Source: a virus
Lineage: Duplodnaviria; Caudoviricetes
Strand: one strand, 5' to 3'
DNA: 64,000 bases
Virus record (IMG/VR): IMGVR_UViG_3300031867_000001
Location: 1 to 64,000 of that record
The translations under genes were made by a program, and so were the position numbers. This document shows positions 26,046 through 41,278 of the stretch, piece after piece. The stretch's first letter is position 1. Each line of letters starts with the position of its first letter. The notes beneath the pieces were generated by a model, which was not told the DNA's origin, ran no database searches, and was given only the letters and a program-made list of their open reading frames with translations.

Positions 26046-26236
26046 TAAAATAAATGATGGGGAATATTAATATTCCCCATCGCATAACATATGTATTAAA
26101 TTCGCACAATCATGTTCGAAACATTGTCCGGTTTTGAATATGAGTGCATTACTAAACACAAGCTTCCTTGCAATACCTCGACTTGTGTTAACACAACACG
26201 GATGTTCACACTTCCCCGCGCTCATCCGTGTTAAAT

Positions 26237-26320
26237 GCTATGGTGGTGGAATTGGTATACACAGAGCACTCAAAATGCTCCGACTTAATTGTCATAAGGG
26301 TTCAAGTCCCTTCCGTAGCA
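26237..26320 (+). tRNA. tRNA-Leu(CAA)
   Basis: GCTATGG/CCGTAGC acceptor; GAGCA-CTCAAAA-TGCTC anticodon arm; long variable arm; GGTTCAAGTCC. Confidence 0.9.
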
Positions 26321-26326
26321 TCCTAT

Positions 26327-26403
26327 CGGGACATGGTGAAGTTTGGTATCACGCTACATTTGGGATGTAGATGCCGGGAGTTCGAATCTCCCTGTTCCGA
26401 CCA
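26327..26403 (+). tRNA. tRNA-Pro(TGG)
   Basis: CTACA-TTTGGGA-TGTAG; GTTCGAATC; encoded CCA. Confidence 0.92.
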
Positions 26404-26405
26404 TT

Positions 26406-26552
26406 ATTCTGAAGCAGTTTATATCAGATACTTCGAATCACCATTTTGAAATGAATTTATATGTTTCATTCACACACAAAAATCGTCGAACAAGATTCCA
26501 GTTCGGCGTCAATCGAAAGATTGCCTTTTCTGGTATAGAACATTCTCAGAAT
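26406..26552 (+). ncRNA. Y RNA-like (putative Ro60-binding) RNA, copy 0
   Basis: Terminal stem ATTCTGA/TCAGAAT; GAAGCAG...TATATCAGA-TACTTCG...TCTGGTATA...ATTCTC motif shared with the 40-kb cluster. Confidence 0.7.
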
Positions 26553-26659
26553 TATAAATAACTCAACTATGTATTCCCCGGCGTCGTGCCGGGGAATGTT
26601 GGGTTTATTTTTGTCATTTTTAAAAACCTATATCAAACACCTTTAAGGAGGAAAAAGAA

Positions 26660-27730: not shown

Positions 27731-27868
27731 TAAATGAGAAACAAACTCTTTATCAATATTATTTTCAGGAGGAATAAGACATGAAGTTTGCAAAGAAAGT
27801 TGAGATCAAGGTCACGGTTAAGGACAATCCGTTTCTGAAGGAACAAGTACAGTTGTGAGGTGATTGAT

Positions 27869-28345
27869 ATGGACGAACCGATTACATCTTTTCGTGGCAA
27901 TTATGAATTCTTATCGAATTTTTACGAATGTTATGTTCCAATGACATTCGGTAAAGACAACATTCCATTTGAATTCAGAAATGCTGAAGCGGCATTCCAA
28001 GCACACAAGACACACAATTTTGCAGATCTGGTTATATTTTCAAATATGACTGGACGGGAAGCAAAGAAGTTTGGTCGTAAAGTGAAATTACGTGATGATT
28101 GGAACGACATTCGTTTGCGAATCATGTTTGAAGTCGTGTTAACGAAATTCGTTGTCAATCAAGATTTGCGTGATAAGTTGATTACAACCGGACAAAGAGA
28201 ACTGATCGAGGGTAACACATGGCACGATACCTTCTGGGGAGTTTGTGATGGTAAGGGCGAAAATCACCTTGGGAAGATTCTTATGGAAGTCCGGTCAATG
28301 TTGATACGTGCACAGTTTCTATATAAAGAGGAGGATCATCGATGA
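27869..28345 (+). CDS. NADAR family protein (YbiA/DUF1768)
   Basis: FLSNFY, AEAAFQAHK, AKKFGR, LIEGNTWHDTFWG, GENHLGKILMEVR. Confidence 0.92.
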   Translation: MDEPITSFRGNYEFLSNFYECYVPMTFGKDNIPFEFRNAEAAFQAHKTHNFADLVIFSNMTGREAKKFGRKVKLRDDWNDIRLRIMFEVVLTKFVVNQDLRDKLITTGQRELIEGNTWHDTFWGVCDGKGENHLGKILMEVRSMLIRAQFLYKEEDHR

Positions 28346-29757: not shown

Positions 29758-30429
29758 ATGAAAAAGAAGCAGAATAACATACCCGAGTATGTGATCGAGG
29801 AATTGATCCCGCGTTTTCGCGGGATCGATACTCCGACAATCGCATATGTTGAATGTAAATTTTTGAACATGGACGGCAATTTTATTATGTCCAAAACATC
29901 AAAACCGGAGTATGATATATTACAGCTCAATACTGATGATACAATGATGGGAACATATGCCATTATGTTATGCCAGGATAAAGCATACCGTGAAGTCAAG
30001 GAATCAATTGAACGTCATAAAGATGATCAATATGATGAAATCGATGGTATGTTAACAACATATCGTCATTCAATTACAGGTGGTACAACATATGTCACAT
30101 CGGTTGGATTTGTACAACATTTCAAAATCCATCCTCTTCGGAAAGGTTTTGGAATTGATATTAAGAAGAATTACAAATTCGATATATCGAAGCTTAAAAG
30201 GAATGATGTATTCAAAATCACGATCAAATACGGGCGCAAAAAATTTGATGAAAGATACGGCATTCTCTTGAGTGTTAATGACACGACGCTGAAACTGAAA
30301 CTTTCGATGGGTTTTGACCCAGATGACGATTATGCACCAATGGCGTATGAAATCAAGATTGATGACATTGTCAACGGCAAGGTGACACTTGAGAAAGTCG
30401 ATCTCAATCAAATTGCTATAAATATTTGA
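29758..30429 (+). CDS. hypothetical protein, paralog B
   Basis: PEYVIEELIPRFRGID; similar C-terminus (VNG...VDL). Confidence 0.7.
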   Translation: MKKKQNNIPEYVIEELIPRFRGIDTPTIAYVECKFLNMDGNFIMSKTSKPEYDILQLNTDDTMMGTYAIMLCQDKAYREVKESIERHKDDQYDEIDGMLTTYRHSITGGTTYVTSVGFVQHFKIHPLRKGFGIDIKKNYKFDISKLKRNDVFKITIKYGRKKFDERYGILLSVNDTTLKLKLSMGFDPDDDYAPMAYEIKIDDIVNGKVTLEKVDLNQIAINI

Positions 30430-30494
30430 TTTGGTGTAACAACGTCTTACATCAAATTATAGGTGATGAATATAAATTCTTAGGAGGAATCAGT

Positions 30495-32591
30495 ATGAGT
30501 AAACTTTCTAAAGCAGCAAAGGAAATGTCCGCCCAGGACAAGACACGCAAGGAGCTTCATTTAGATGAAGCACATAAGAATCACATGGGTGGTGATTCTT
30601 ACGAACTCAATCCGCTTGAGACACTTAAGCTGATTGCATGCTCTTCCATCTTTGGTGAAGCAAAGTATTATAAGGAGTATGAAAAGGATTACAAGCCACA
30701 TAATCCAGAAACCGGCGGTAGAAGTTTTTCGACTTGGTATACGGAAACACGTATGGACTTCAACACAATCGCTGTTGATCTGTCTATCAAGCCAGTTGTT
30801 TCTTGTGACGTTCTGAGAACCAAATCCACATCTGAAGTATTCGAGGAAGCAATTGATGCTGCACTTGATTACGACTTCCGTGGAACAATCAGGTTTGCAA
30901 TGGATCTTCGTACTGAATACTTCATGCGTTTGAATCCACAAATCATTATGGTACGTGCCGCAATTCATCCGAAGCGTAAGGAATTCACTGAAAAGAATCC
31001 CGGTATGTTCGCTGCAGCACAGATGGTTGTTATGAAGCGTGCGGATGAACCCGCAGCACAGCTTGCATATTATTTGTATCTCAACAAGGGCAAGAAGAAT
31101 CAGCTTCCTTCCATCCTTAAGAGATCTATCGCACTTAAGCTTGGTAAACTGAGCAAGTATCAGGTTAACAAGTATAAGAATGCAGAGATTGGCATGATCA
31201 ATGCTGTACGTCTGACTCATGCATCATCTCCCGTTCTTGATGAACTGATGCAGACTGGATCTGTCAAAGTCGATGAGGAAGACAAGACATGGGAACAGCT
31301 TCGTTCCGGTGGTATGTCTTGGCAGGAGATTGTTGATAAGGGCGTAATGCCCCATATGGCAATGCTCCGTAATATCAGAAACGTATTCAAGGAAGTTGAG
31401 GATCTTGACTTCTGCAAGAAGTACATGACCAAGTTAAAGGATGGAGTCCTCAAGGGCAAACAGTTCCCGTTCAGATACAAGTCTGCATACGATGTTGTGA
31501 AAGAGGACTATAGAATCAATCATCGTGCATATATCATGGATACACTGGAAGAGTGTATCGATATCTCAATCGACAATCTTCCGAAGCTGAAAGGTACAAC
31601 TGTATGCTTGTCGGATAACTCTGGTTCTGCATGGGGTGCTGTAACATCCGAATATGGTAGTACCACAATTGCTGAGATCGACAACCTGTCATCTGTAATC
31701 GCTGCCAAATGCTCCGATGAAGGATCTGTTATCAAGTTTGGTGATAGATACAAAGAGTATCCAATCTCTAAGAGAAATGGTGCACTTAGTATTGCAGAAA
31801 CTGTCAATGAAACAGGTGGTCATGATGTTGGACTGCAAACAGAAGGCGGTGTTTGGAAATGGTTCGCTCATGTCCTTGATAATGAGATCAAGGTCGACAA
31901 CATTTTCATCTTCTCTGACATGCAGGCTGGAACCGGTGGTTTGTATGGTACTGACGAAGACATGAGAGATTATATCCGTGGCGGATATGGTTGCAGAATC
32001 CGCAGCAGATATGGAGAACAGTTTGGATTCATCAATGTATTCAAACTCATTCTTGCATACAGAAAGCATGTTAACCCCAAGGTTAATGTGTTCACTGTAC
32101 AGACTGCTGGATACGGTGATGCGGTCGTTCCGATGATGACTTACAGATGTGCCATTCTTACTGGTTGGACTGGTAAGGAAGTTCAGTTCGCCGCTGAATA
32201 CATTAAGCAGTGGGATGAGATCGAAGCTAAGCGTGAGTCTCAGAAGAAGAAGATTGATGATGCATCCATTCTCAATCAAATTACTAAGGAAGATGTAATT
32301 GAAGCAACTGAAGCTTATGAGCATAATCAGAAAGTTATGACTGATATTGCAAAGACGATCTTTTCTGATAAGCAATATCCTGATGCAGATGATAAAGAGC
32401 TTCTTAAACAATTCGACGAGCAGATTAATGGTAAACCGAAGCTTGTTGATGAATCCAAGCAAGAAGCATTCGATAAGTTGACAAAGGACATGTCACCAAT
32501 CGGTATTATCGCTTTGAAGTCACTGTTGAATGCGTATGCAAAGATGGATGATGACGAGCGTAAGAAGTTCTTTGAAGATATCAGCGAGTAA
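30495..32591 (+). CDS. Ro60/Rsr-like TROVE + vWA domain RNA-binding protein
   Basis: NHMGGDSY N-terminus, YQVNKY, MPHMAMLRNIRN, KQFPFRY, MIDAS DNSGS, IFSDMQ; ATG 30495 after AGGAGG. Confidence 0.9.
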   Translation: MSKLSKAAKEMSAQDKTRKELHLDEAHKNHMGGDSYELNPLETLKLIACSSIFGEAKYYKEYEKDYKPHNPETGGRSFSTWYTETRMDFNTIAVDLSIKPVVSCDVLRTKSTSEVFEEAIDAALDYDFRGTIRFAMDLRTEYFMRLNPQIIMVRAAIHPKRKEFTEKNPGMFAAAQMVVMKRADEPAAQLAYYLYLNKGKKNQLPSILKRSIALKLGKLSKYQVNKYKNAEIGMINAVRLTHASSPVLDELMQTGSVKVDEEDKTWEQLRSGGMSWQEIVDKGVMPHMAMLRNIRNVFKEVEDLDFCKKYMTKLKDGVLKGKQFPFRYKSAYDVVKEDYRINHRAYIMDTLEECIDISIDNLPKLKGTTVCLSDNSGSAWGAVTSEYGSTTIAEIDNLSSVIAAKCSDEGSVIKFGDRYKEYPISKRNGALSIAETVNETGGHDVGLQTEGGVWKWFAHVLDNEIKVDNIFIFSDMQAGTGGLYGTDEDMRDYIRGGYGCRIRSRYGEQFGFINVFKLILAYRKHVNPKVNVFTVQTAGYGDAVVPMMTYRCAILTGWTGKEVQFAAEYIKQWDEIEAKRESQKKKIDDASILNQITKEDVIEATEAYEHNQKVMTDIAKTIFSDKQYPDADDKELLKQFDEQINGKPKLVDESKQEAFDKLTKDMSPIGIIALKSLLNAYAKMDDDERKKFFEDISE

Positions 32592-34908: not shown

Positions 34909-35217
34909 ATGAATAAGCGAATCAAAAAGAAGAAACAGAAGTTAGCAGCAATGCACGCTTCTAAATGGAAGGATATAAAGCTCGTTAAAAAGCGGGCTCA
35001 CGCGACCCGTATTGAAGTTCAGCATGGTTCATGGGGGATGTTCCCCGATAAAGATAACTATGCAAGGTATCTTCGGAAAAAGCGTTGTTGTGATAAAAAC
35101 GAAGCCAAAATCGAACAACACTTCTTATTTGGAGAGATCTTGTTGATTGCAGCAGCAAACGAACGCAAAAAGGTGAAGAAGAAGTTGTTTGCGAAAGAAG
35201 GTAATTATAATGGCTAA
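34909..35217 (+). CDS. small basic protein
   Basis: MNKRIKKKK; AAGGAGG RBS. Confidence 0.6.
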   Translation: MNKRIKKKKQKLAAMHASKWKDIKLVKKRAHATRIEVQHGSWGMFPDKDNYARYLRKKRCCDKNEAKIEQHFLFGEILLIAAANERKKVKKKLFAKEGNYNG

Positions 35218-35797
35218 AGAAAAGCATCAACAGCTATCAAGATTTTTATGCTACATCCTGAGACACAAACCTGGTGATCTCCATCTGGTGATGGATCACG
35301 AGGGCTTTGTCAATGTTCAGCAACTCATCAAGAATGTCAACGAGTATACATCGTATGAAATCAATGAAGACATTCTTCGGGAGATTGTTGATACAGATAG
35401 CAAAGGTCGGTATGAATATACAGGTGATGAAATCAGATGTGTTCAGGGGCATTCAATTCCATGGGTCGATCCGAAACCCACAATCAAAGAACCACCGACG
35501 TATCTGTTTCATGGAACGACGATGGAAGCTTTTGAACTCATCAAGAACGATGGTGAAATCAAGAAGATGAAACGCCATGCAGTTCATATGCAAGCTGATG
35601 TTTTAAAAGCAGCACAATCGGCAGAAAGATGGTCTTCATCTGAACCGGTTGTTCTCGTCATTAATGCACATGCAATGCATAATGACGGATATGAATTTGG
35701 TGTAACAAGAAATAATGTTTGGTTGACAGATCATGTACCAACAAAATACATTTGCTGGTACATCGTCAATGAAAAATCGGAGGAGGTGCGGTTGTGA
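35210..35797 (+). CDS. kptA: RNA 2'-phosphotransferase (Tpt1/KptA)
   Basis: LSRFLCYILRH, DSKGRY, IRCVQGHS, LFHGT, MKRHAVHM, NNVWLTDHVP. Confidence 0.92.
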   Translation: MAKEKHQQLSRFLCYILRHKPGDLHLVMDHEGFVNVQQLIKNVNEYTSYEINEDILREIVDTDSKGRYEYTGDEIRCVQGHSIPWVDPKPTIKEPPTYLFHGTTMEAFELIKNDGEIKKMKRHAVHMQADVLKAAQSAERWSSSEPVVLVINAHAMHNDGYEFGVTRNNVWLTDHVPTKYICWYIVNEKSEEVRL

Positions 35798-36296: not shown

Positions 36297-37268
36297 ATGC
36301 TGAGAGTTGAGTTTTCAAAGAACAACCTGACACAGTTTCAATCTAACTTGAGCCAGATTCTCAATTTGATGAATCCTGCATCGGTTAAGATTGGAACTCA
36401 TCTTGATACCTATGCGGCAAAAGTGACCCTCGAACACAAGGGTCGCTATGATGAAACTTCCATGAAAATACTTAGCAAAGGTGCTCGTCTCGGAGAGGCA
36501 TTTTGTCCAACATGTGATGTGTTCGCATATGATCTTGATGAGAATGGTGATCCCGACAACTGTTATATGTTCAAGAAGCCAACTGCATATGACTGCAGTG
36601 CATATCCCGATCGAATCACTGTTGAGATTGAATTTGGTGAACTTTATTCTGGACCAAATATCGATGAAAAATGTAAAGAGGCTGAAAAACTGAGATACTG
36701 GTCAACGGTAATGCGTAAACTCATGAAAGAGGACCTTGATAAGAAATTTAATGATAAGGGGGATGATAATGTGTCAGCTGAATTAAATCGTATATCAAAA
36801 CATGAATATTATTTGAAGATCGCCGAAGCTGTATCTCTGAGAGGAACCTGCTTGAGACGTAAATTCGGTGCGATTATCGTTAAAGATGATCGTATCGTAT
36901 CAACCGGATATGTTGGTGCTCCCCGTGGAAGAATCAACTGTTGTGATCGTGGGAAGTGTTATCGTATGGAGCATAATGTTCCCAGTGGTCAACGCTATGA
37001 ACTTTGTAGAAGTACACATGCCGAGATGAATGCAGTCATTCAAGCGTCACCGGAAGAAATGAAATTTGCAACACTGTATCTTGTAGGAATCGAAAATGAC
37101 GGTTCTTACACAAATGCAGACTGCTGTTCGATGTGTAAGCGGGTAATCATTAATTCTGGTATTAACACTGTGATTGCACGTCAAGCTGATGGAAGCTTCA
37201 AAAAGATTCATGTAAATGAATGGATCAATGATGATGATTCATTAGATATCGACCATAAGGGATATTAA
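36297..37268 (+). CDS. dCMP deaminase (ComEB-like) with N-terminal extension
   Basis: TCLRRKFGAIIV, STGYVGAPRG, HAEMNA, CCSMCKR. Confidence 0.85.
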   Translation: MLRVEFSKNNLTQFQSNLSQILNLMNPASVKIGTHLDTYAAKVTLEHKGRYDETSMKILSKGARLGEAFCPTCDVFAYDLDENGDPDNCYMFKKPTAYDCSAYPDRITVEIEFGELYSGPNIDEKCKEAEKLRYWSTVMRKLMKEDLDKKFNDKGDDNVSAELNRISKHEYYLKIAEAVSLRGTCLRRKFGAIIVKDDRIVSTGYVGAPRGRINCCDRGKCYRMEHNVPSGQRYELCRSTHAEMNAVIQASPEEMKFATLYLVGIENDGSYTNADCCSMCKRVIINSGINTVIARQADGSFKKIHVNEWINDDDSLDIDHKGY

Positions 37269-39252: not shown

Positions 39253-39929
39253 TGAAAAGAGATTACACAATTGAAAATCTGGATCAGCAGCCAACATCTG
39301 ATATTTGTATCGGTGAGATATTCTTCAATAAAGATGACGGCAAATTATATACATGGCTTGAAACGTGGGACGAATTTGGGGTGAACCCAGCTGGTGGAAC
39401 ATACAACGCAGTATCACGTCGACTTCATGCACACAATATGACGCATATTCGTAAACGTGAAGCATTACAGTTTTTGGGTGAAGCTAATAGTAACGACCGG
39501 CTTAGTATGACATGGTCAGTTGAAAGATTCACAGAAATAAAGTGTTTCTTAAGACACATGATCAATGAATTCAACAGACGTCAAAATTGTGGCATTGAAT
39601 TGAACGATATCACATGGAGTGACAATGCTACAACAATTAAGATCGGATCGGTCAATATCGAAATGGCTGTCACTTTCATGGACAACAATAATGAATCCCA
39701 TTACAGCACACTTAATTTTGAACTGTTGATTTCTGGATACATGCAAATTGAATGTGTTGAAAATGACGTGTTGTTATTCCGAATTGCAGCAGACCCAATG
39801 TGTCGAATGTTTGATATCAAAGACAATCGTATTGATACTGTATATGAAACAAATAATGTTGAATCGGGTTTCAGTGGACATAAGTTCTACAATATGCTGT
39901 ATGATATGATTCAAGATTGGTTCGAATAA
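39252..39929 (+). CDS. hypothetical protein
   Basis: GGAGGTG RBS. Confidence 0.65.
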   Translation: MKRDYTIENLDQQPTSDICIGEIFFNKDDGKLYTWLETWDEFGVNPAGGTYNAVSRRLHAHNMTHIRKREALQFLGEANSNDRLSMTWSVERFTEIKCFLRHMINEFNRRQNCGIELNDITWSDNATTIKIGSVNIEMAVTFMDNNNESHYSTLNFELLISGYMQIECVENDVLLFRIAADPMCRMFDIKDNRIDTVYETNNVESGFSGHKFYNMLYDMIQDWFE

Positions 39930-39954
39930 TTTATATTATTCTGACAAGGACTAA

Positions 39955-40090
39955 TGTGTATATGTGGAATGATGCGGCGAAACAGTTACATCGATTAATT
40001 TGTATTTAATTGCCATAAGCGGTTCATTTCTAAATGATCAAATGCTGTGGATAAAAACTGTTTCGAATAATTCTCATTCCACATTACACA
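39955..40090 (+). ncRNA. Y RNA-like RNA, copy 1
   Basis: ATGTGGAATGA/TCATTCCACAT stem; GATGCGG..GAAACAGT-TACATCG...ACTGTTTC..ATTCTC. Confidence 0.7.
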
Positions 40091-40099
40091 TATAAATAC

Positions 40100-40182
40100 A
40101 TTTCCGATGCAGTGATATCAGTTACTTCGTCAATCTGTTAAATTGAAATGAGTACTAAACTGATATAGATATTCTCGGAAAT
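40100..40182 (+). ncRNA. Y RNA-like RNA, copy 2 (minimal)
   Basis: ATTTCCGA/TCGGAAAT; GATGCAG..ATATCAGT-TACTTCG...ACTGATAT..ATTCTC. Confidence 0.72.
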
Positions 40183-40197
40183 ATAACATATAAATAC

Positions 40198-40337
40198 ATT
40201 TAGCTGAAGCAGTCATTAACAGTTACTTCATACATATTTATGATTTTTAAGTTCGAATCTTAAGTTTGTAGCGTTTGTTTGCAATCTAAGTGGCTAAAGG
40301 AATGCCACATAACTGTTATGAATATCCTCAGCTAAAT
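40198..40337 (+). ncRNA. Y RNA-like RNA, copy 3 (YrlA-like, with T-arm)
   Basis: ATTTAGCTGA/TCAGCTAAAT; TAACAGT/ACTGTTA; internal TTAAG-TTCGAAT-CTTAA T-arm. Confidence 0.75.
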
Positions 40338-40341
40338 TTAT

Positions 40342-40479
40342 GGGGACGATAGCTCAGTTGGTAGAGCACGTAAATGTCACTGTTACAAAAATCCTCACCG
40401 GATAGGTGATGCAGAAGTTAACAGTTACTTCGCATATGGAGCGCGTTGTCGTTAGTTCAAATCTAACTCGTCCCCCTCA
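40342..40479 (+). ncRNA. tRNA-shaped RNA with a circularly permuted Y-RNA module replacing the anticodon arm
   Basis: GGGGACGA/TCGTCCCC acceptor; GCTC-AGTTGGTA-GAGC D-arm; GTTAG-TTCAAAT-CTAAC T-arm; insert ACTGTTA..ATCCTCACC-loop-GGTGATGCAG..TAACAGTTACTTCG. Confidence 0.72.
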
Positions 40480-40489
40480 TTTAATATTG

Positions 40490-40629
40490 ATATACCGATG
40501 CAGTGATGCCTGGATACTTCGTGGTGAATAGGTTAACACATAAGAATGAAAATCTTACATATCGGGTTCAAGTCCCGACGGGACATCTAATAGATGTTTA
40601 TGTCTCCAAGCTCGATATTCTCGGTATAT
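40490..40629 (+). ncRNA. Y RNA-like RNA, copy 5, enclosing D, anticodon(GAA) and T arms
   Basis: ATATACCGA/TCGGTATAT; GATGCAG..TACTTCG; TAAGA-ATGAAAA-TCTTA; TCGGG-TTCAAGT-CCCGA; ATTCTC. Confidence 0.7.
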
Positions 40630-40638
40630 TAATATAAT

Positions 40639-40715
40639 GCGACTGTAGTTCAATTGGTCAGAACATCTGCCTTCCAAGCAGGGGGTTGCGAATTCGAGTT
40701 TCGTCAGTCGCTCCA
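40639..40715 (+). tRNA. tRNA-Gly(TCC)
   Basis: GCGACTG/CAGTCGC; CTTCCAA loop; CCA. Confidence 0.88.
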
Positions 40716-40716
40716 C

Positions 40717-40815
40717 ATGCATGATGCAGTTATATCAGTTACTTCGATAACCTGTCACGTTATAATGAGTATTCTGCAAAGAATAATGTGTACTGGTATA
40801 AACATTCTCATGCAT
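40717..40815 (+). ncRNA. Y RNA-like RNA, copy 6
   Basis: ATGCATGA/TCATGCAT; GATGCAG..TATATCAGT-TACTTCG...ACTGGTATA..ATTCTC. Confidence 0.72.
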
Positions 40816-40822
40816 ATTATTC

Positions 40823-40896
40823 GGGTCATTAGTCCAGTTGGTTAGAACGCAGCACTGTTAATGCTGATGTCATAGGTTCAAGTCCTATATGGCCCG
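40823..40896 (+). tRNA. tRNA-Asn(GTT)
   Basis: CAGCA-CTGTTAA-TGCTG; GGTTCAAGTCC. Confidence 0.9.
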
Positions 40897-40901
40897 CTTA
40901 T

Positions 40902-40978
40902 GGCTGGTTAGTAGAGTTGGTTAATACACCGGGTTTTCATCCCAGAGATCAGGAGTTCGATCCTCCTACCAGTCACCA
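40902..40978 (+). tRNA. tRNA-Glu(TTC)
   Basis: GGG-TTTTCAT-CCC; GTTCGATC; CCA. Confidence 0.82.
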
Positions 40979-41083
40979 CGGGGTTATTATTTGAATAACC
41001 TCGCATTATGAAATGTTTGCAGGGCTTTTATGCCCTGCATTCATTTTCATTTTATTTTTATCATTTTAATGAGGTGATTAATC

Positions 41084-41278
41084 ATGACTGTTAACAAAAT
41101 CAAATTTCCAGATGGTACAGTAATCGATGTTGATAATGAAAAAACATTGAATGAGATTATGTCAATGCGTAAAGACATTAGAGACTTGAAAGATGCTGTT
41201 GGAACATTGAATTACAGAATCAATGATGTTATGCATATGATCGAAGAATTAAAACGTGATGTTTCATATTTACATTAA
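41084..41278 (+). CDS. small coiled-coil protein
   Basis: GAGGTG RBS; 64 aa. Confidence 0.6.
   Translation: MTVNKIKFPDGTVIDVDNEKTLNEIMSMRKDIRDLKDAVGTLNYRINDVMHMIEELKRDVSYLH

What the first reader, a model, noticed from the sequence alone, without database searches (positions are those of the whole stretch)
39955..40815. Family of seven diverged Y-RNA-like elements interleaved with phage tRNAs
Seen: six elements here plus one at 26406-26552 share stem-GA(T/A)GC(A/G)G...helix-TAC(T/A)TC...helix-AT(T/C)CTC-stem. The terminal stems differ in sequence yet pair perfectly, which amounts to covariation, and the cargo loops differ. Known: Ro60/Rsr binds Y RNAs through a conserved terminal helix, and bacterial YrlA RNAs carry tRNA-like domains. 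A Ro60 gene lies at 30495. Inference: a phage Ro60 RNP with many interchangeable RNA adaptors, unusually placed 4-8 kb from the ro gene.
Basis: partly seen in the sequence, partly recalled or inferred. Interest (0 to 1): 0.75.

Follow-up and report, generated by a model that had tools for sequence, protein, structure and literature searches.

The report
Phage Ro60 partner RNAs displaying tRNA parts
A 250-kb rumen phage encodes seven small RNAs that share one conserved "handle" resembling the Ro60-binding end of bacterial Y RNAs but carry different tRNA pieces (anticodon loops, T arms, a whole tRNA turned inside out), so they are most likely a multi-member set of partner RNAs for the phage's own Ro60 protein.

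Summary
Seven same-strand copies of one RNA module lie at 26403-26555 and 39954-40815: closing stem P1, internal loop GA(U/A)GC(A/G)G opposite AU(U/C)CUC, stem P2, then (U/A)UAC(U/A)UC and a variable cargo. There are no others in the 250-kb genome. Both stems covary across 44 copies from ten phage contigs (91% paired against 59% shuffled).

The Y-RNA reading is supported by comparison, not by binding data.
- All ten contigs that carry the module encode a homologue of the window's TROVE/vWA protein, whose model matches only Ro60 structures at the top.
- In most relatives the array starts 6-75 nt from that gene, on the same strand.
- Relatives' copies hit Rfam YrlA below threshold (42.8 bits, E 2e-6). 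The YrlA consensus shares the AUGC loop and the YUAY element.

The window's own copies miss Rfam YrlA and lack the canonical GNCGAA motif, so this is a divergent subfamily.

The new points are arrays of 5-8 copies, cargoes that mimic anticodon stem-loops (Thr, Asn, Asp, Phe), and both circular permutations of the tRNA-like body. Function, whether tethering or decoying tRNA-binding factors, is inferred.

Earlier follow-ups of this scan reported Ro60-like proteins with handle-and-cargo RNA arrays in other phages, with different handles.

The parts
26403..26555 (+). E0: Y-like RNA. It begins directly after tRNA-Pro and has a 95-nt cargo of three hairpins with no recognisable tRNA part.
   Evidence: Motif hit; CM R1 36.5 bits, E 6e-6; z -3.9; cargo scan.
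39954..40092 (+). E1: Y-like RNA with an 18-bp P1 and the variants GAUGCGG and UUACAUC. Its cargo starts with an anticodon-loop-like hairpin (loop UUUGUAU, UGU = Thr), followed by a second hairpin.
   Evidence: CM 33.9 bits; z -6.1.
40097..40185 (+). E2: minimal Y-like RNA. Its cargo is a 5-bp stem with the 7-nt loop CUGUUAA, an Asn (GUU) anticodon stem-loop mimic.
   Evidence: CM 92.2 bits; z -2.8.
40196..40339 (+). E3: YrlA-order cargo, made of a T arm (loop UUCGAAU), a closed hairpin and a degenerate D-like hairpin.
   Evidence: CM 45.9 bits; T-arm scan; z -4.8.
40343..40478 (+). E4: inside-out copy. It has a tRNA-shaped body with an open acceptor stem, a D arm and a T arm. The handle sits where the anticodon arm should be, with P1 closed by the loop GGAUA.
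   Evidence: Rfam tRNA 43.6 bits with a 73-nt insertion; folds of this copy and of its G006 orthologue, which carries compensatory changes in every arm.
40489..40630 (+). E5: the handle encloses a tRNA-order body (D arm, anticodon arm with GAA = Phe, T arm, extra hairpin). UACUUCG serves as the 5' acceptor-like strand.
   Evidence: ARAGORN tRNA-Phe 40515-40587; Rfam tRNA 38.6 bits with acceptor mismatches; CM 37.7 bits.
40717..40815 (+). E6: Y-like RNA whose cargo is an Asp (GUC) anticodon stem-loop mimic (loop CUGUCAC) plus a small hairpin. It sits flush between tRNA-Gly and tRNA-Asn.
   Evidence: CM 91.8 bits; z -2.6.
30495..32591 (+). Phage Ro60 (TROVE + vWA) gene, 698 aa from the ATG, with a C-terminal helical extension. 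It is the proposed protein partner.
   Evidence: Pfam TROVE 28.3 bits (cut-off 23); PHROG 850, E 1e-41; phiLo Ro60 in the PDB, E 1e-10; AF2 pLDDT 79 with the top 12 Foldseek hits all Ro60; start codon.
26236..26403 (+). tRNA-Leu(CAA) and tRNA-Pro(UGG), immediately upstream of E0.
40639..40978 (+). tRNA-Gly(UCC), tRNA-Asn(GUU) and tRNA-Glu(UUC), interleaved with E6. Their ends abut the ends of the Y-like RNAs, which suggests maturation by tRNA processing (an inference).
41018..41049 (+). Terminator-like hairpin plus T-rich tail that closes the array transcription unit.

Best explanation
The seven elements are a divergent, multi-copy subfamily of YrlA-type bacterial/phage Y RNAs. They are transcribed together with phage tRNAs, and inference says they are cut out by the host's tRNA-processing enzymes. 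Each RNA has a constant handle: P1, the asymmetric internal loop GAUGCAG // AUUCUC, P2, and the UA-containing UUACUUC element. The handle is the docking site for the phage's Ro60 ring protein (inferred). Each RNA also has a variable cargo that copies a part of a tRNA: an anticodon stem-loop, a T arm with a D arm, or a whole body in either circular permutation. The particle would therefore present several different tRNA look-alikes on one protein. This could tether tRNA-binding factors to Ro60, as Deinococcus Y RNA tethers PNPase, or soak up tRNA-binding factors such as nucleases, modification enzymes or repair enzymes. Shown here: the family, its structure, its tRNA-derived cargoes and its linkage to the Ro60 gene. 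Inferred: binding, processing and the downstream effect.
For: (1) All 10 viral contigs with the module encode a homologue of the window's Ro60 (57-74% identity), including 5-kb fragments.
(2) Adjacency survives rearrangement. The array starts about 10 nt after the gene in G001 and G002, 75 nt after it in G003, and flanks it on both sides in G005. An independent metagenome scaffold with a Ro60 at 49% identity has three copies upstream and one copy 6 nt downstream.
(3) Loci with Ro60 at 44%, 40% and 34% identity carry the same architecture next to the gene. WUACUUC and the 3' pyrimidine-rich loop strand (UUCUC, AUUC) are kept, and the 5' loop is changed to AGCGG or UAGUG.
(4) Rfam YrlA hits relatives' copies over the full model at 42.8, 37.1 and 32.8 bits (E 2e-6 to 2e-3). 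Its consensus cgaAUGCuu...CUAc...aAaAcUuG lines up with GAUGCAG...UUAC...AUAUUCUC.
(5) The UA of YUAY is conserved in YrlA and forms a kink there (10.1101/312249).
(6) Cargoes are tRNA-derived. T-arm hairpins occur in 20 of 49 cargoes (0.2 expected) and anticodon-type hairpins in 17 of 49 (2.3 expected).
(7) The protein is a Ro60 by Pfam, PHROG, MIDAS motif and fold.
(8) Phage Ro60 binding to phage Y-like RNAs has been shown experimentally for Thermus phage phiLo (PMC12135203).
Against: There is no expression or binding evidence. The window's own copies give no Rfam YrlA match at E <= 10, and relatives stay below the 69-bit gathering score. The published Ro-contact motif GNCGAAN0-1G (PMC4201824) is not present as such. 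In this genome the main array lies 7.4 kb from the gene. Several of the co-occurring contigs are related phages, so part of the co-occurrence is shared descent. One homologue at 47% identity (L052) showed no copy within 4 kb. No RtcB is encoded in the genome; PNPase was not searched. No effector partner is therefore identified.
Confidence: 0.72

Rival explanations
1. The handle is a tRNA-mimic or decoy scaffold that works on its own or with a protein other than Ro60. Linkage to the TROVE gene would then reflect a shared operon or island, not a complex.
For: Binding is untested. In this genome and in G006 the array is 7-10 kb from the gene. L052 has the protein without a detected copy.
Against: Immediate same-strand adjacency (6-75 nt) recurs in at least six loci with different flanking genes. 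The handle resembles the Ro-binding module of YrlA. The 5' loop variant changes along with Ro60 divergence.
Confidence: 0.12
2. The elements are processing or stabilising punctuation of the tRNA operon, such as nuclease entry sites or protective clamps, with no trans function.
For: They are interleaved with tRNAs and their ends abut tRNA ends. Long closing stems could protect against exonucleases.
Against: Invariant loop nucleotides (G, A, G, C, G; U, C, U, C; UUCUC in 43-44 of 44 copies) and elaborate tRNA-like cargoes are not needed for punctuation. In L060 the copies next to the gene have no adjoining tRNA, the nearest lying about 850 nt upstream.
Confidence: 0.08
3. The handle is an intron-like or mobile insertion that is removed from tRNA precursors. 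The nearby Tpt1/KptA would clear the 2'-phosphate after ligation.
For: E4, and a tRNA-Tyr-like gene in G005, carry the handle inside a tRNA body. The G005 gene has a GUA loop, a long variable arm and an encoded CCA. Tpt1 lies at 35189-35797.
Against: Most copies have no tRNA exons around them. E4 has no anticodon arm to restore. No splicing endonuclease was seen among the genes scanned around the array, and no RtcB in the genome; ATP-dependent RNA ligase families were not searched. Rfam finds no intron or ribozyme in the array at E <= 10.
Confidence: 0.04
4. The elements are decaying duplicates of tRNA genes without function.
For: The cargoes are tRNA-derived and diverse.
Against: There is strong compensatory covariation, invariant loops across phages whose Ro60 is only 34-60% identical, and conservation of E4 with compensatory changes in G006.
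Confidence: 0.02

Closest known systems
YrlA (Rfam RF02553), the tRNA-like Y RNA of Salmonella, M. smegmatis and mycobacteriophages (Chen et al. 2014, PMC4201824; structure in 10.1101/312249)
   Same: The two-module plan is shared: a closing stem with an asymmetric internal loop containing AUGC, a second stem, a conserved YUAY, and then a tRNA-like domain in the order V - T arm - closed acceptor hairpin - D arm. Both are encoded on the strand of a Ro60 gene. Relatives' copies match the model over its full length.
   Different: Scores are below the gathering cut-off, and the window copies do not match at all. GNCGAA is replaced by YGA(U/A)GC. There are 5-8 copies per genome instead of 1-2. Many cargoes are bare anticodon stem-loop mimics, whereas YrlA lacks an anticodon loop. 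Some copies are permuted so that the acceptor end is open (E4), or the handle replaces the acceptor stem (E5).
Thermus phage phiLo Ro60 with Yrl1 and Yrl2 (PMC12135203; PDB 9KOP, 9L5Y)
   Same: A phage-encoded Ro60 sits next to phage-encoded Y-like RNAs. It is the best structural match of the window protein (TM 0.72 on the target).
   Different: phiLo has two Yrls with a CGAA bulge, and no tRNA-part cargoes are reported. Binding and a PNPase complex were shown there and are not shown here.
Deinococcus radiodurans Yrn1 / Rsr / PNPase (RYPER), as described in PMC4201824
   Same: It provides the concept of a Y RNA that tethers Ro60 to an effector through its distal module. Its tRNA-like features are in a different order from YrlA.
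   Different: There is no sequence relation to the handle here. No PNPase link was tested.
Metazoan Y RNAs (hY1, hY3-5)
   Same: Several paralogous RNAs share a conserved Ro-binding stem and differ in their distal loops.
   Different: The Ro-binding helix (GGUCCGA with a bulged C) is unrelated in sequence, and there are no tRNA-like cargoes.

Membership tests
YrlA (Rfam RF02553) | Score at or above the curated gathering threshold (69 bits) | tested here: not met
   There is no YrlA match in window 39800-41100 at E <= 10 and none at gathering across the whole window. The best relative copy scores 42.8 bits, E 2e-6.
YrlA (Rfam RF02553) | 5' Ro-contact motif GNCGAAN0-1G (PMC4201824) | tested here: not met
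   All copies have N-GA(U/A)GC(A/G)G instead. Only the GA.G/AUGC core is shared with the Rfam consensus.
YrlA (Rfam RF02553) | Conserved YUAY (with the UA kink) after the handle stem | tested here: met
   UUAC or AUAC is present in 7 of 7 window copies. U, A and C are conserved in 43-44 of 44 aligned copies.
YrlA (Rfam RF02553) | tRNA-like domain in the order T arm - closed acceptor hairpin - D arm, without an anticodon loop | tested here: inconclusive
   It is present in about ten relatives' copies and, in degenerate form, in E3. It is absent from E0, E1, E2 and E6. E4 and E5 have the other topology, and E1, E2, E5 and E6 carry anticodon-type loops.
YrlA (Rfam RF02553) | Encoded within about 4 kb of a Ro60 gene on the same strand | tested here: met
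   E0 lies 3.9 kb upstream on the same strand. The main array is 7.4 kb downstream in this genome but 6-75 nt away in G001, G002, G003, G005, G008 and L060.
YrlA (Rfam RF02553) | Physical binding to Ro60/Rsr | not testable with these tools
   This needs RIP/CLIP or a gel shift.
Ro60 / Rsr (TROVE + vWA) | TROVE domain above Pfam's cut-off, and full-length family match | tested here: met
   PF05731 scores 28.3 bits against a cut-off of 23. PHROG 850 covers residues 50-591, E 1e-41.
Ro60 / Rsr (TROVE + vWA) | vWA domain with a DxSxS MIDAS motif | tested here: met
   D397 and S399 are invariant and S401 is conserved in at least 90% of a 46-sequence alignment. The vWA beta-alpha fold spans residues 388-580 of the model.
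Ro60 / Rsr (TROVE + vWA) | Ro60 ring fold | tested here: met
   Foldseek ranks 1-12 are all Ro60 (phiLo, Deinococcus, Xenopus, human), E 4e-16 to 7e-9.
Decoding tRNA (for E4 and E5) | Complete cloverleaf with an anticodon arm and a free, paired acceptor end | tested here: not met
   E4 passes the Rfam tRNA score (43.6 bits), but a 73-nt handle replaces the anticodon arm and ARAGORN does not call it. E5 (38.6 bits) has two mismatched acceptor pairs, and its ends are buried inside P2/P1.

The most novel reading that the evidence does not exclude
The phage Ro60 particle is a programmable display of anticodon stem-loops and tRNA elbows. Each array member baits a different tRNA-targeting host factor, for example an anticodon nuclease of an anti-phage defence or a modification enzyme. 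Ro60 then either sequesters that factor or hands the damaged RNA to a nuclease or repair enzyme. The handle would be a portable cassette that phages recombine with any tRNA part, in either topology.
Probability: 0.2. Interest if true: 0.85.

Novelty: new variant of a known kind. Interest (0 to 1): 0.66.

Why it matters
The role of the tRNA-like module of bacterial Y RNAs has been open since 2014. Here nature has varied that module while holding the handle constant. One genome offers anticodon-loop-only, elbow-only, whole-body and inside-out versions side by side, and relatives offer dozens more. That turns "what does the Y RNA cargo bind?" into a direct comparative pull-down experiment. It also shows that current Rfam annotation misses a whole phage branch of the family: about 2,100 clusters (50% identity) of Ro60-like proteins match this one in metagenomes. 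If the cargoes prove to be baits for tRNA-targeting defences, this would be a new class of RNA-based counter-defence.

Tried and rejected
- Rfam at E <= 10 over the array found no ribozyme, intron, riboswitch or YrlA, only tRNA. By eye the loops do not fit the hammerhead, twister, pistol or hairpin cores, so I dropped a self-cleaving reading.
- BLASTN against 50,697 GenBank phages found only tRNA similarity. There is no cultured relative.
- The first exact-pattern scan of IMG/VR returned 32 stretches. 23 were chance matches inside coding genes, lacking P1, P2 and AUUCUC, and were discarded.
- The first MAFFT alignment (A1) mis-registered the 3' strand of P2. I replaced it with A2, six copies of equal geometry.
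- My first covariation script selected copies by pairing, so P1 positions 1-3 were biased. I rely instead on the model-based alignment and its slid-partner control, which is itself fitted to the model.
- RtcB (PF01139) is absent from the genome, so the Salmonella-type rsr-rtcBA link does not apply.
- More distant Ro60 loci (L052, L057) gave no hit with the model. L053, L056 and L058 needed inspection by eye and by folding.
- I did not run metagenome-wide or genome-wide pattern scans, because the expected chance hits for an 18-base pattern would swamp the true ones.
- Complex prediction was not used, because it does not take RNA.

Full report
**What is there**

The window is the first 64 kb of a 250,503-bp IMG/VR phage genome with direct terminal repeats. 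Earlier notes of this scan describe it as an uncultured cattle-rumen phage.

In the whole genome the pattern occurs 7 times forward and twice on the reverse strand, with shorter spacers. The backwards control gives 0.

Six copies share this order:
- a closing stem P1 of 6-18 bp, different in each copy;
- the 5' loop strand GA(U/A)GC(A/G)G;
- stem P2 of 7-10 bp, usually ending in CAG;
- (U/A)UAC(U/A)UC;
- a cargo of 31-95 nt;
- P2', then 2-4 nt, then AU(U/C)CUC;
- P1'.

The first G and the last C of the two loop strands pair with each other. All seven fold better than dinucleotide shuffles, with z from -2.3 to -6.1. No ORF accounts for the region.

**The seventh copy is circularly permuted**

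Region 40343-40478 scores as a tRNA (43.6 bits), but with a 73-nt insertion where the anticodon arm should be. That insertion reads: P2' strand, AUCCUC, P1 closed by the loop GGAUA, GAUGCAG, P2 strand, UUACUUCG.

The handle is therefore intact, but the RNA ends lie in an open acceptor stem. The closest relative has the same gene with compensatory changes in the acceptor, P1, P2 and T stems. P1 can evidently be closed by a loop, which suggests that the handle is recognised through its loop and helices, not through free ends. This is an inference.

**Relatives and covariation**

An exact-pattern scan of IMG/VR gave 32 stretches. Nine of them, from phage contigs of 5 to 258 kb, have the full structure, each in arrays of 3-8 copies. 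The other 23 are chance matches inside coding genes.

A covariance model built from six short copies finds 44 copies in the window and these relatives, all on the array strand. It finds exactly six in the window's genome. On that alignment:
- 91.1% of cells pair, against 59.1% after shuffling and 34-42% when partners are slid by 1-3 columns;
- 221 cells carry changes on both sides, against 75 +/- 6;
- 15 of 16 pairs show compensatory change.

The alignment is fitted to the model, which favours pairing, but the slid-partner control has the same bias. The loop nucleotides are nearly invariant: G, A, G, C, G; U, C, U, C; UUCUC in 43-44 of 44 copies.

**The protein**

ORF 30426-32591 most likely starts at ATG 30495, behind an AGGAGG site. 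The evidence that it is a Ro60 is as follows.
- It matches Pfam TROVE above the cut-off.
- It matches PHROG 850 over its full length, E 1e-41.
- It matches the Ro60 of Thermus phage phiLo in the PDB, E 1e-10.
- In a 46-sequence alignment D397 and S399 of the DxSxS MIDAS motif are invariant, and S401 is kept in at least 90%.
- The AlphaFold model (pLDDT 79) has only Ro60 structures as its 12 best PDB matches: phiLo, Deinococcus Rsr, Xenopus and human.

About 2,100 clusters (50% identity) of proteins from metagenomes match it.

**Linkage of RNA and protein**

All ten contigs that carry the handle encode this protein at 57-74% identity, including two 5-kb fragments. The positions differ between genomes:

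| Genome or locus | Position of the array relative to the Ro60 gene |
|---|---|
| G001, G002 | first copy about 10 nt after the stop codon |
| G003 | 75 nt after the gene |
| G005 | four model-scored copies just upstream, one about 30 nt downstream |
| This genome and G006 | separated from the gene (3.9 kb upstream and 7.4 kb downstream here) |

In this genome the inserted stretch includes Tpt1/KptA and a deaminase-like gene.

An independent metagenome scaffold whose Ro60 is 49% identical has three copies upstream and one copy 6 nt downstream.

More distant homologues carry the same architecture directly upstream of the gene, with WUACUUC and the 3' pyrimidine-rich loop strand (UUCUC, AUUC) kept. 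The 5' loop changes to AGCGG at 44% identity and to UAGUG at 40% and 34% identity. One homologue at 47% identity showed no copy within 4 kb.

Some of these contigs are related phages, so part of the co-occurrence is shared descent. Even so, adjacency persists through different gene orders.

**Relation to YrlA**

Rfam's YrlA model does not hit the window, even at E <= 10. It does hit the relatives' copies that carry a full tRNA-like cargo, over the whole model, at 42.8, 37.1, 32.8 and 30.3 bits (E 2e-6 to 1e-2). The gathering score is 69 bits.

The printed alignment shows how the two correspond:
- the YrlA consensus stem is followed by AUGCu, then a stem, then CUAc;
- on the 3' side it has aAaAcUuG;
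- these positions correspond to GAUGCAG, UUAC and AUAUUCUC here.

Chen et al. (PMC4201824) define YrlA by four features: a GNCGAAN0-1G motif, a conserved YUAY, a T - acceptor hairpin - D domain, and a position within 4 kb of Ro60 on the same strand. The crystal-structure preprint (10.1101/312249) shows that the conserved UA forms a kink, and stresses that YrlA has neither a free CCA end nor an anticodon loop.

The family here shares the plan and the UA element, but it fails the score and lacks the GNCGAA motif. I therefore file it as a divergent subfamily that works like YrlA, not as a member by Rfam's criteria.

**Cargoes**

In 49 copies, T-arm hairpins occur in 20 (0.2 expected from shuffles, maximum 2). 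Anticodon-type hairpins, with a stem of at least 5 bp and a 7-nt loop of the form YU-NNN-R-N, occur in 17 (2.3 expected, maximum 7).

| Window copy | Cargo |
|---|---|
| E0 | three hairpins, no tRNA part |
| E1 | loop UUUGUAU (UGU, Thr) |
| E2 | loop CUGUUAA (GUU, Asn) |
| E3 | T arm plus degenerate acceptor-like and D-like hairpins, in YrlA order |
| E4 | inside-out tRNA body |
| E5 | D arm, anticodon arm (GAA, Phe), T arm in normal order; UACUUCG as acceptor-like strand |
| E6 | loop CUGUCAC (GUC, Asp) |

The loops of E2 and E6 match, from my memory of E. coli tRNA sequences, the anticodon loops of tRNA-Asn and tRNA-Asp.

Relatives add Lys, Ser, Cys and Tyr loops. They also include a tRNA-Tyr-like gene with an encoded CCA in which the handle is inserted between the D arm and the anticodon arm.

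**Expression context (inferred)**

E0 starts right after tRNA-Pro. E6 fills the gap between tRNA-Gly and tRNA-Asn to within a few nucleotides. A terminator-like hairpin follows tRNA-Glu. RNase P and the 3' tRNA-processing enzymes would therefore release the Y-like RNAs. This has not been shown.

**Mechanism**

The best-supported reading is that Ro60 binds the constant handle, and that each RNA presents a different tRNA part. Known precedents are tethering of PNPase by Deinococcus Y RNA, and the phiLo Ro60-Yrl-PNPase complex (PMC4201824; PMC12135203). Whether the cargoes recruit, sequester or mark tRNA-binding factors cannot be decided here. No RtcB is encoded in the genome. Tpt1 and a NADAR protein lie nearby.

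**Novelty**

Phage Ro60 genes with Y-like RNAs are known from mycobacteriophages, CcrColossus, Bacillus phage G and phiLo. Three literature searches found no description of arrays of 5-8 Y-like RNAs, of anticodon-loop cargoes, or of the permuted forms. This is not proof of absence.

Earlier follow-ups of this scan reported Ro60-like proteins with handle-and-cargo RNA arrays in other phages, with other handles. None of them has this handle.

Noticed in passing
window 27860-28345, 35189-35797, 36297-37268: A NADAR-domain protein (E 6e-28), an RNA 2'-phosphotransferase Tpt1/KptA (E 8e-40) and a protein with a dCMP-deaminase-like C-terminal half lie around and between the Ro60 gene and the array. 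A NADAR gene also sits next to the Ro60 gene in L056.
   Followed up: partly
L013 4376-5019 (-): A full-length ROOL RNA (Rfam RF03087, 284 bits) lies in a relative's tRNA cluster, 2-3 kb from its Y-like array. No ROOL or GOLLD reached the gathering score in the window itself.
   Followed up: no
L042 700-850: This is a tRNA-Tyr-like gene with a GUA loop, a long variable arm and an encoded CCA. The Y handle is inserted between the D arm and the anticodon arm, giving a fourth topology that might still be chargeable.
   Followed up: partly
window 40084-40099 and 40184-40199: The same 16-nt AU-rich spacer (ACAUAUAAAUACAUUU) precedes E2 and E3 and runs into their P1 stems. It is either a trace of tandem duplication or a processing site.
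   Followed up: no
window 32247-32591 (protein residues 585-720): The Ro60 of this phage and of G006 carries an extra C-terminal helical bundle (pLDDT 55-75). The 550-610-residue relatives lack it, and it matches no Pfam family.
   Followed up: no
L052 5848-7296; L053 5871-7549: In other phages the gene directly after Ro60 is a TilS-like tRNA(Ile)-lysidine synthetase (L052) or a pair of metallophosphoesterases (L053). These are further links of this protein to tRNA and RNA-end chemistry.
   Followed up: no
L057 265-466: There is a sub-threshold group I intron match (42.9 bits against a gathering score of 50) in a distant Ro60-bearing contig.
   Followed up: no
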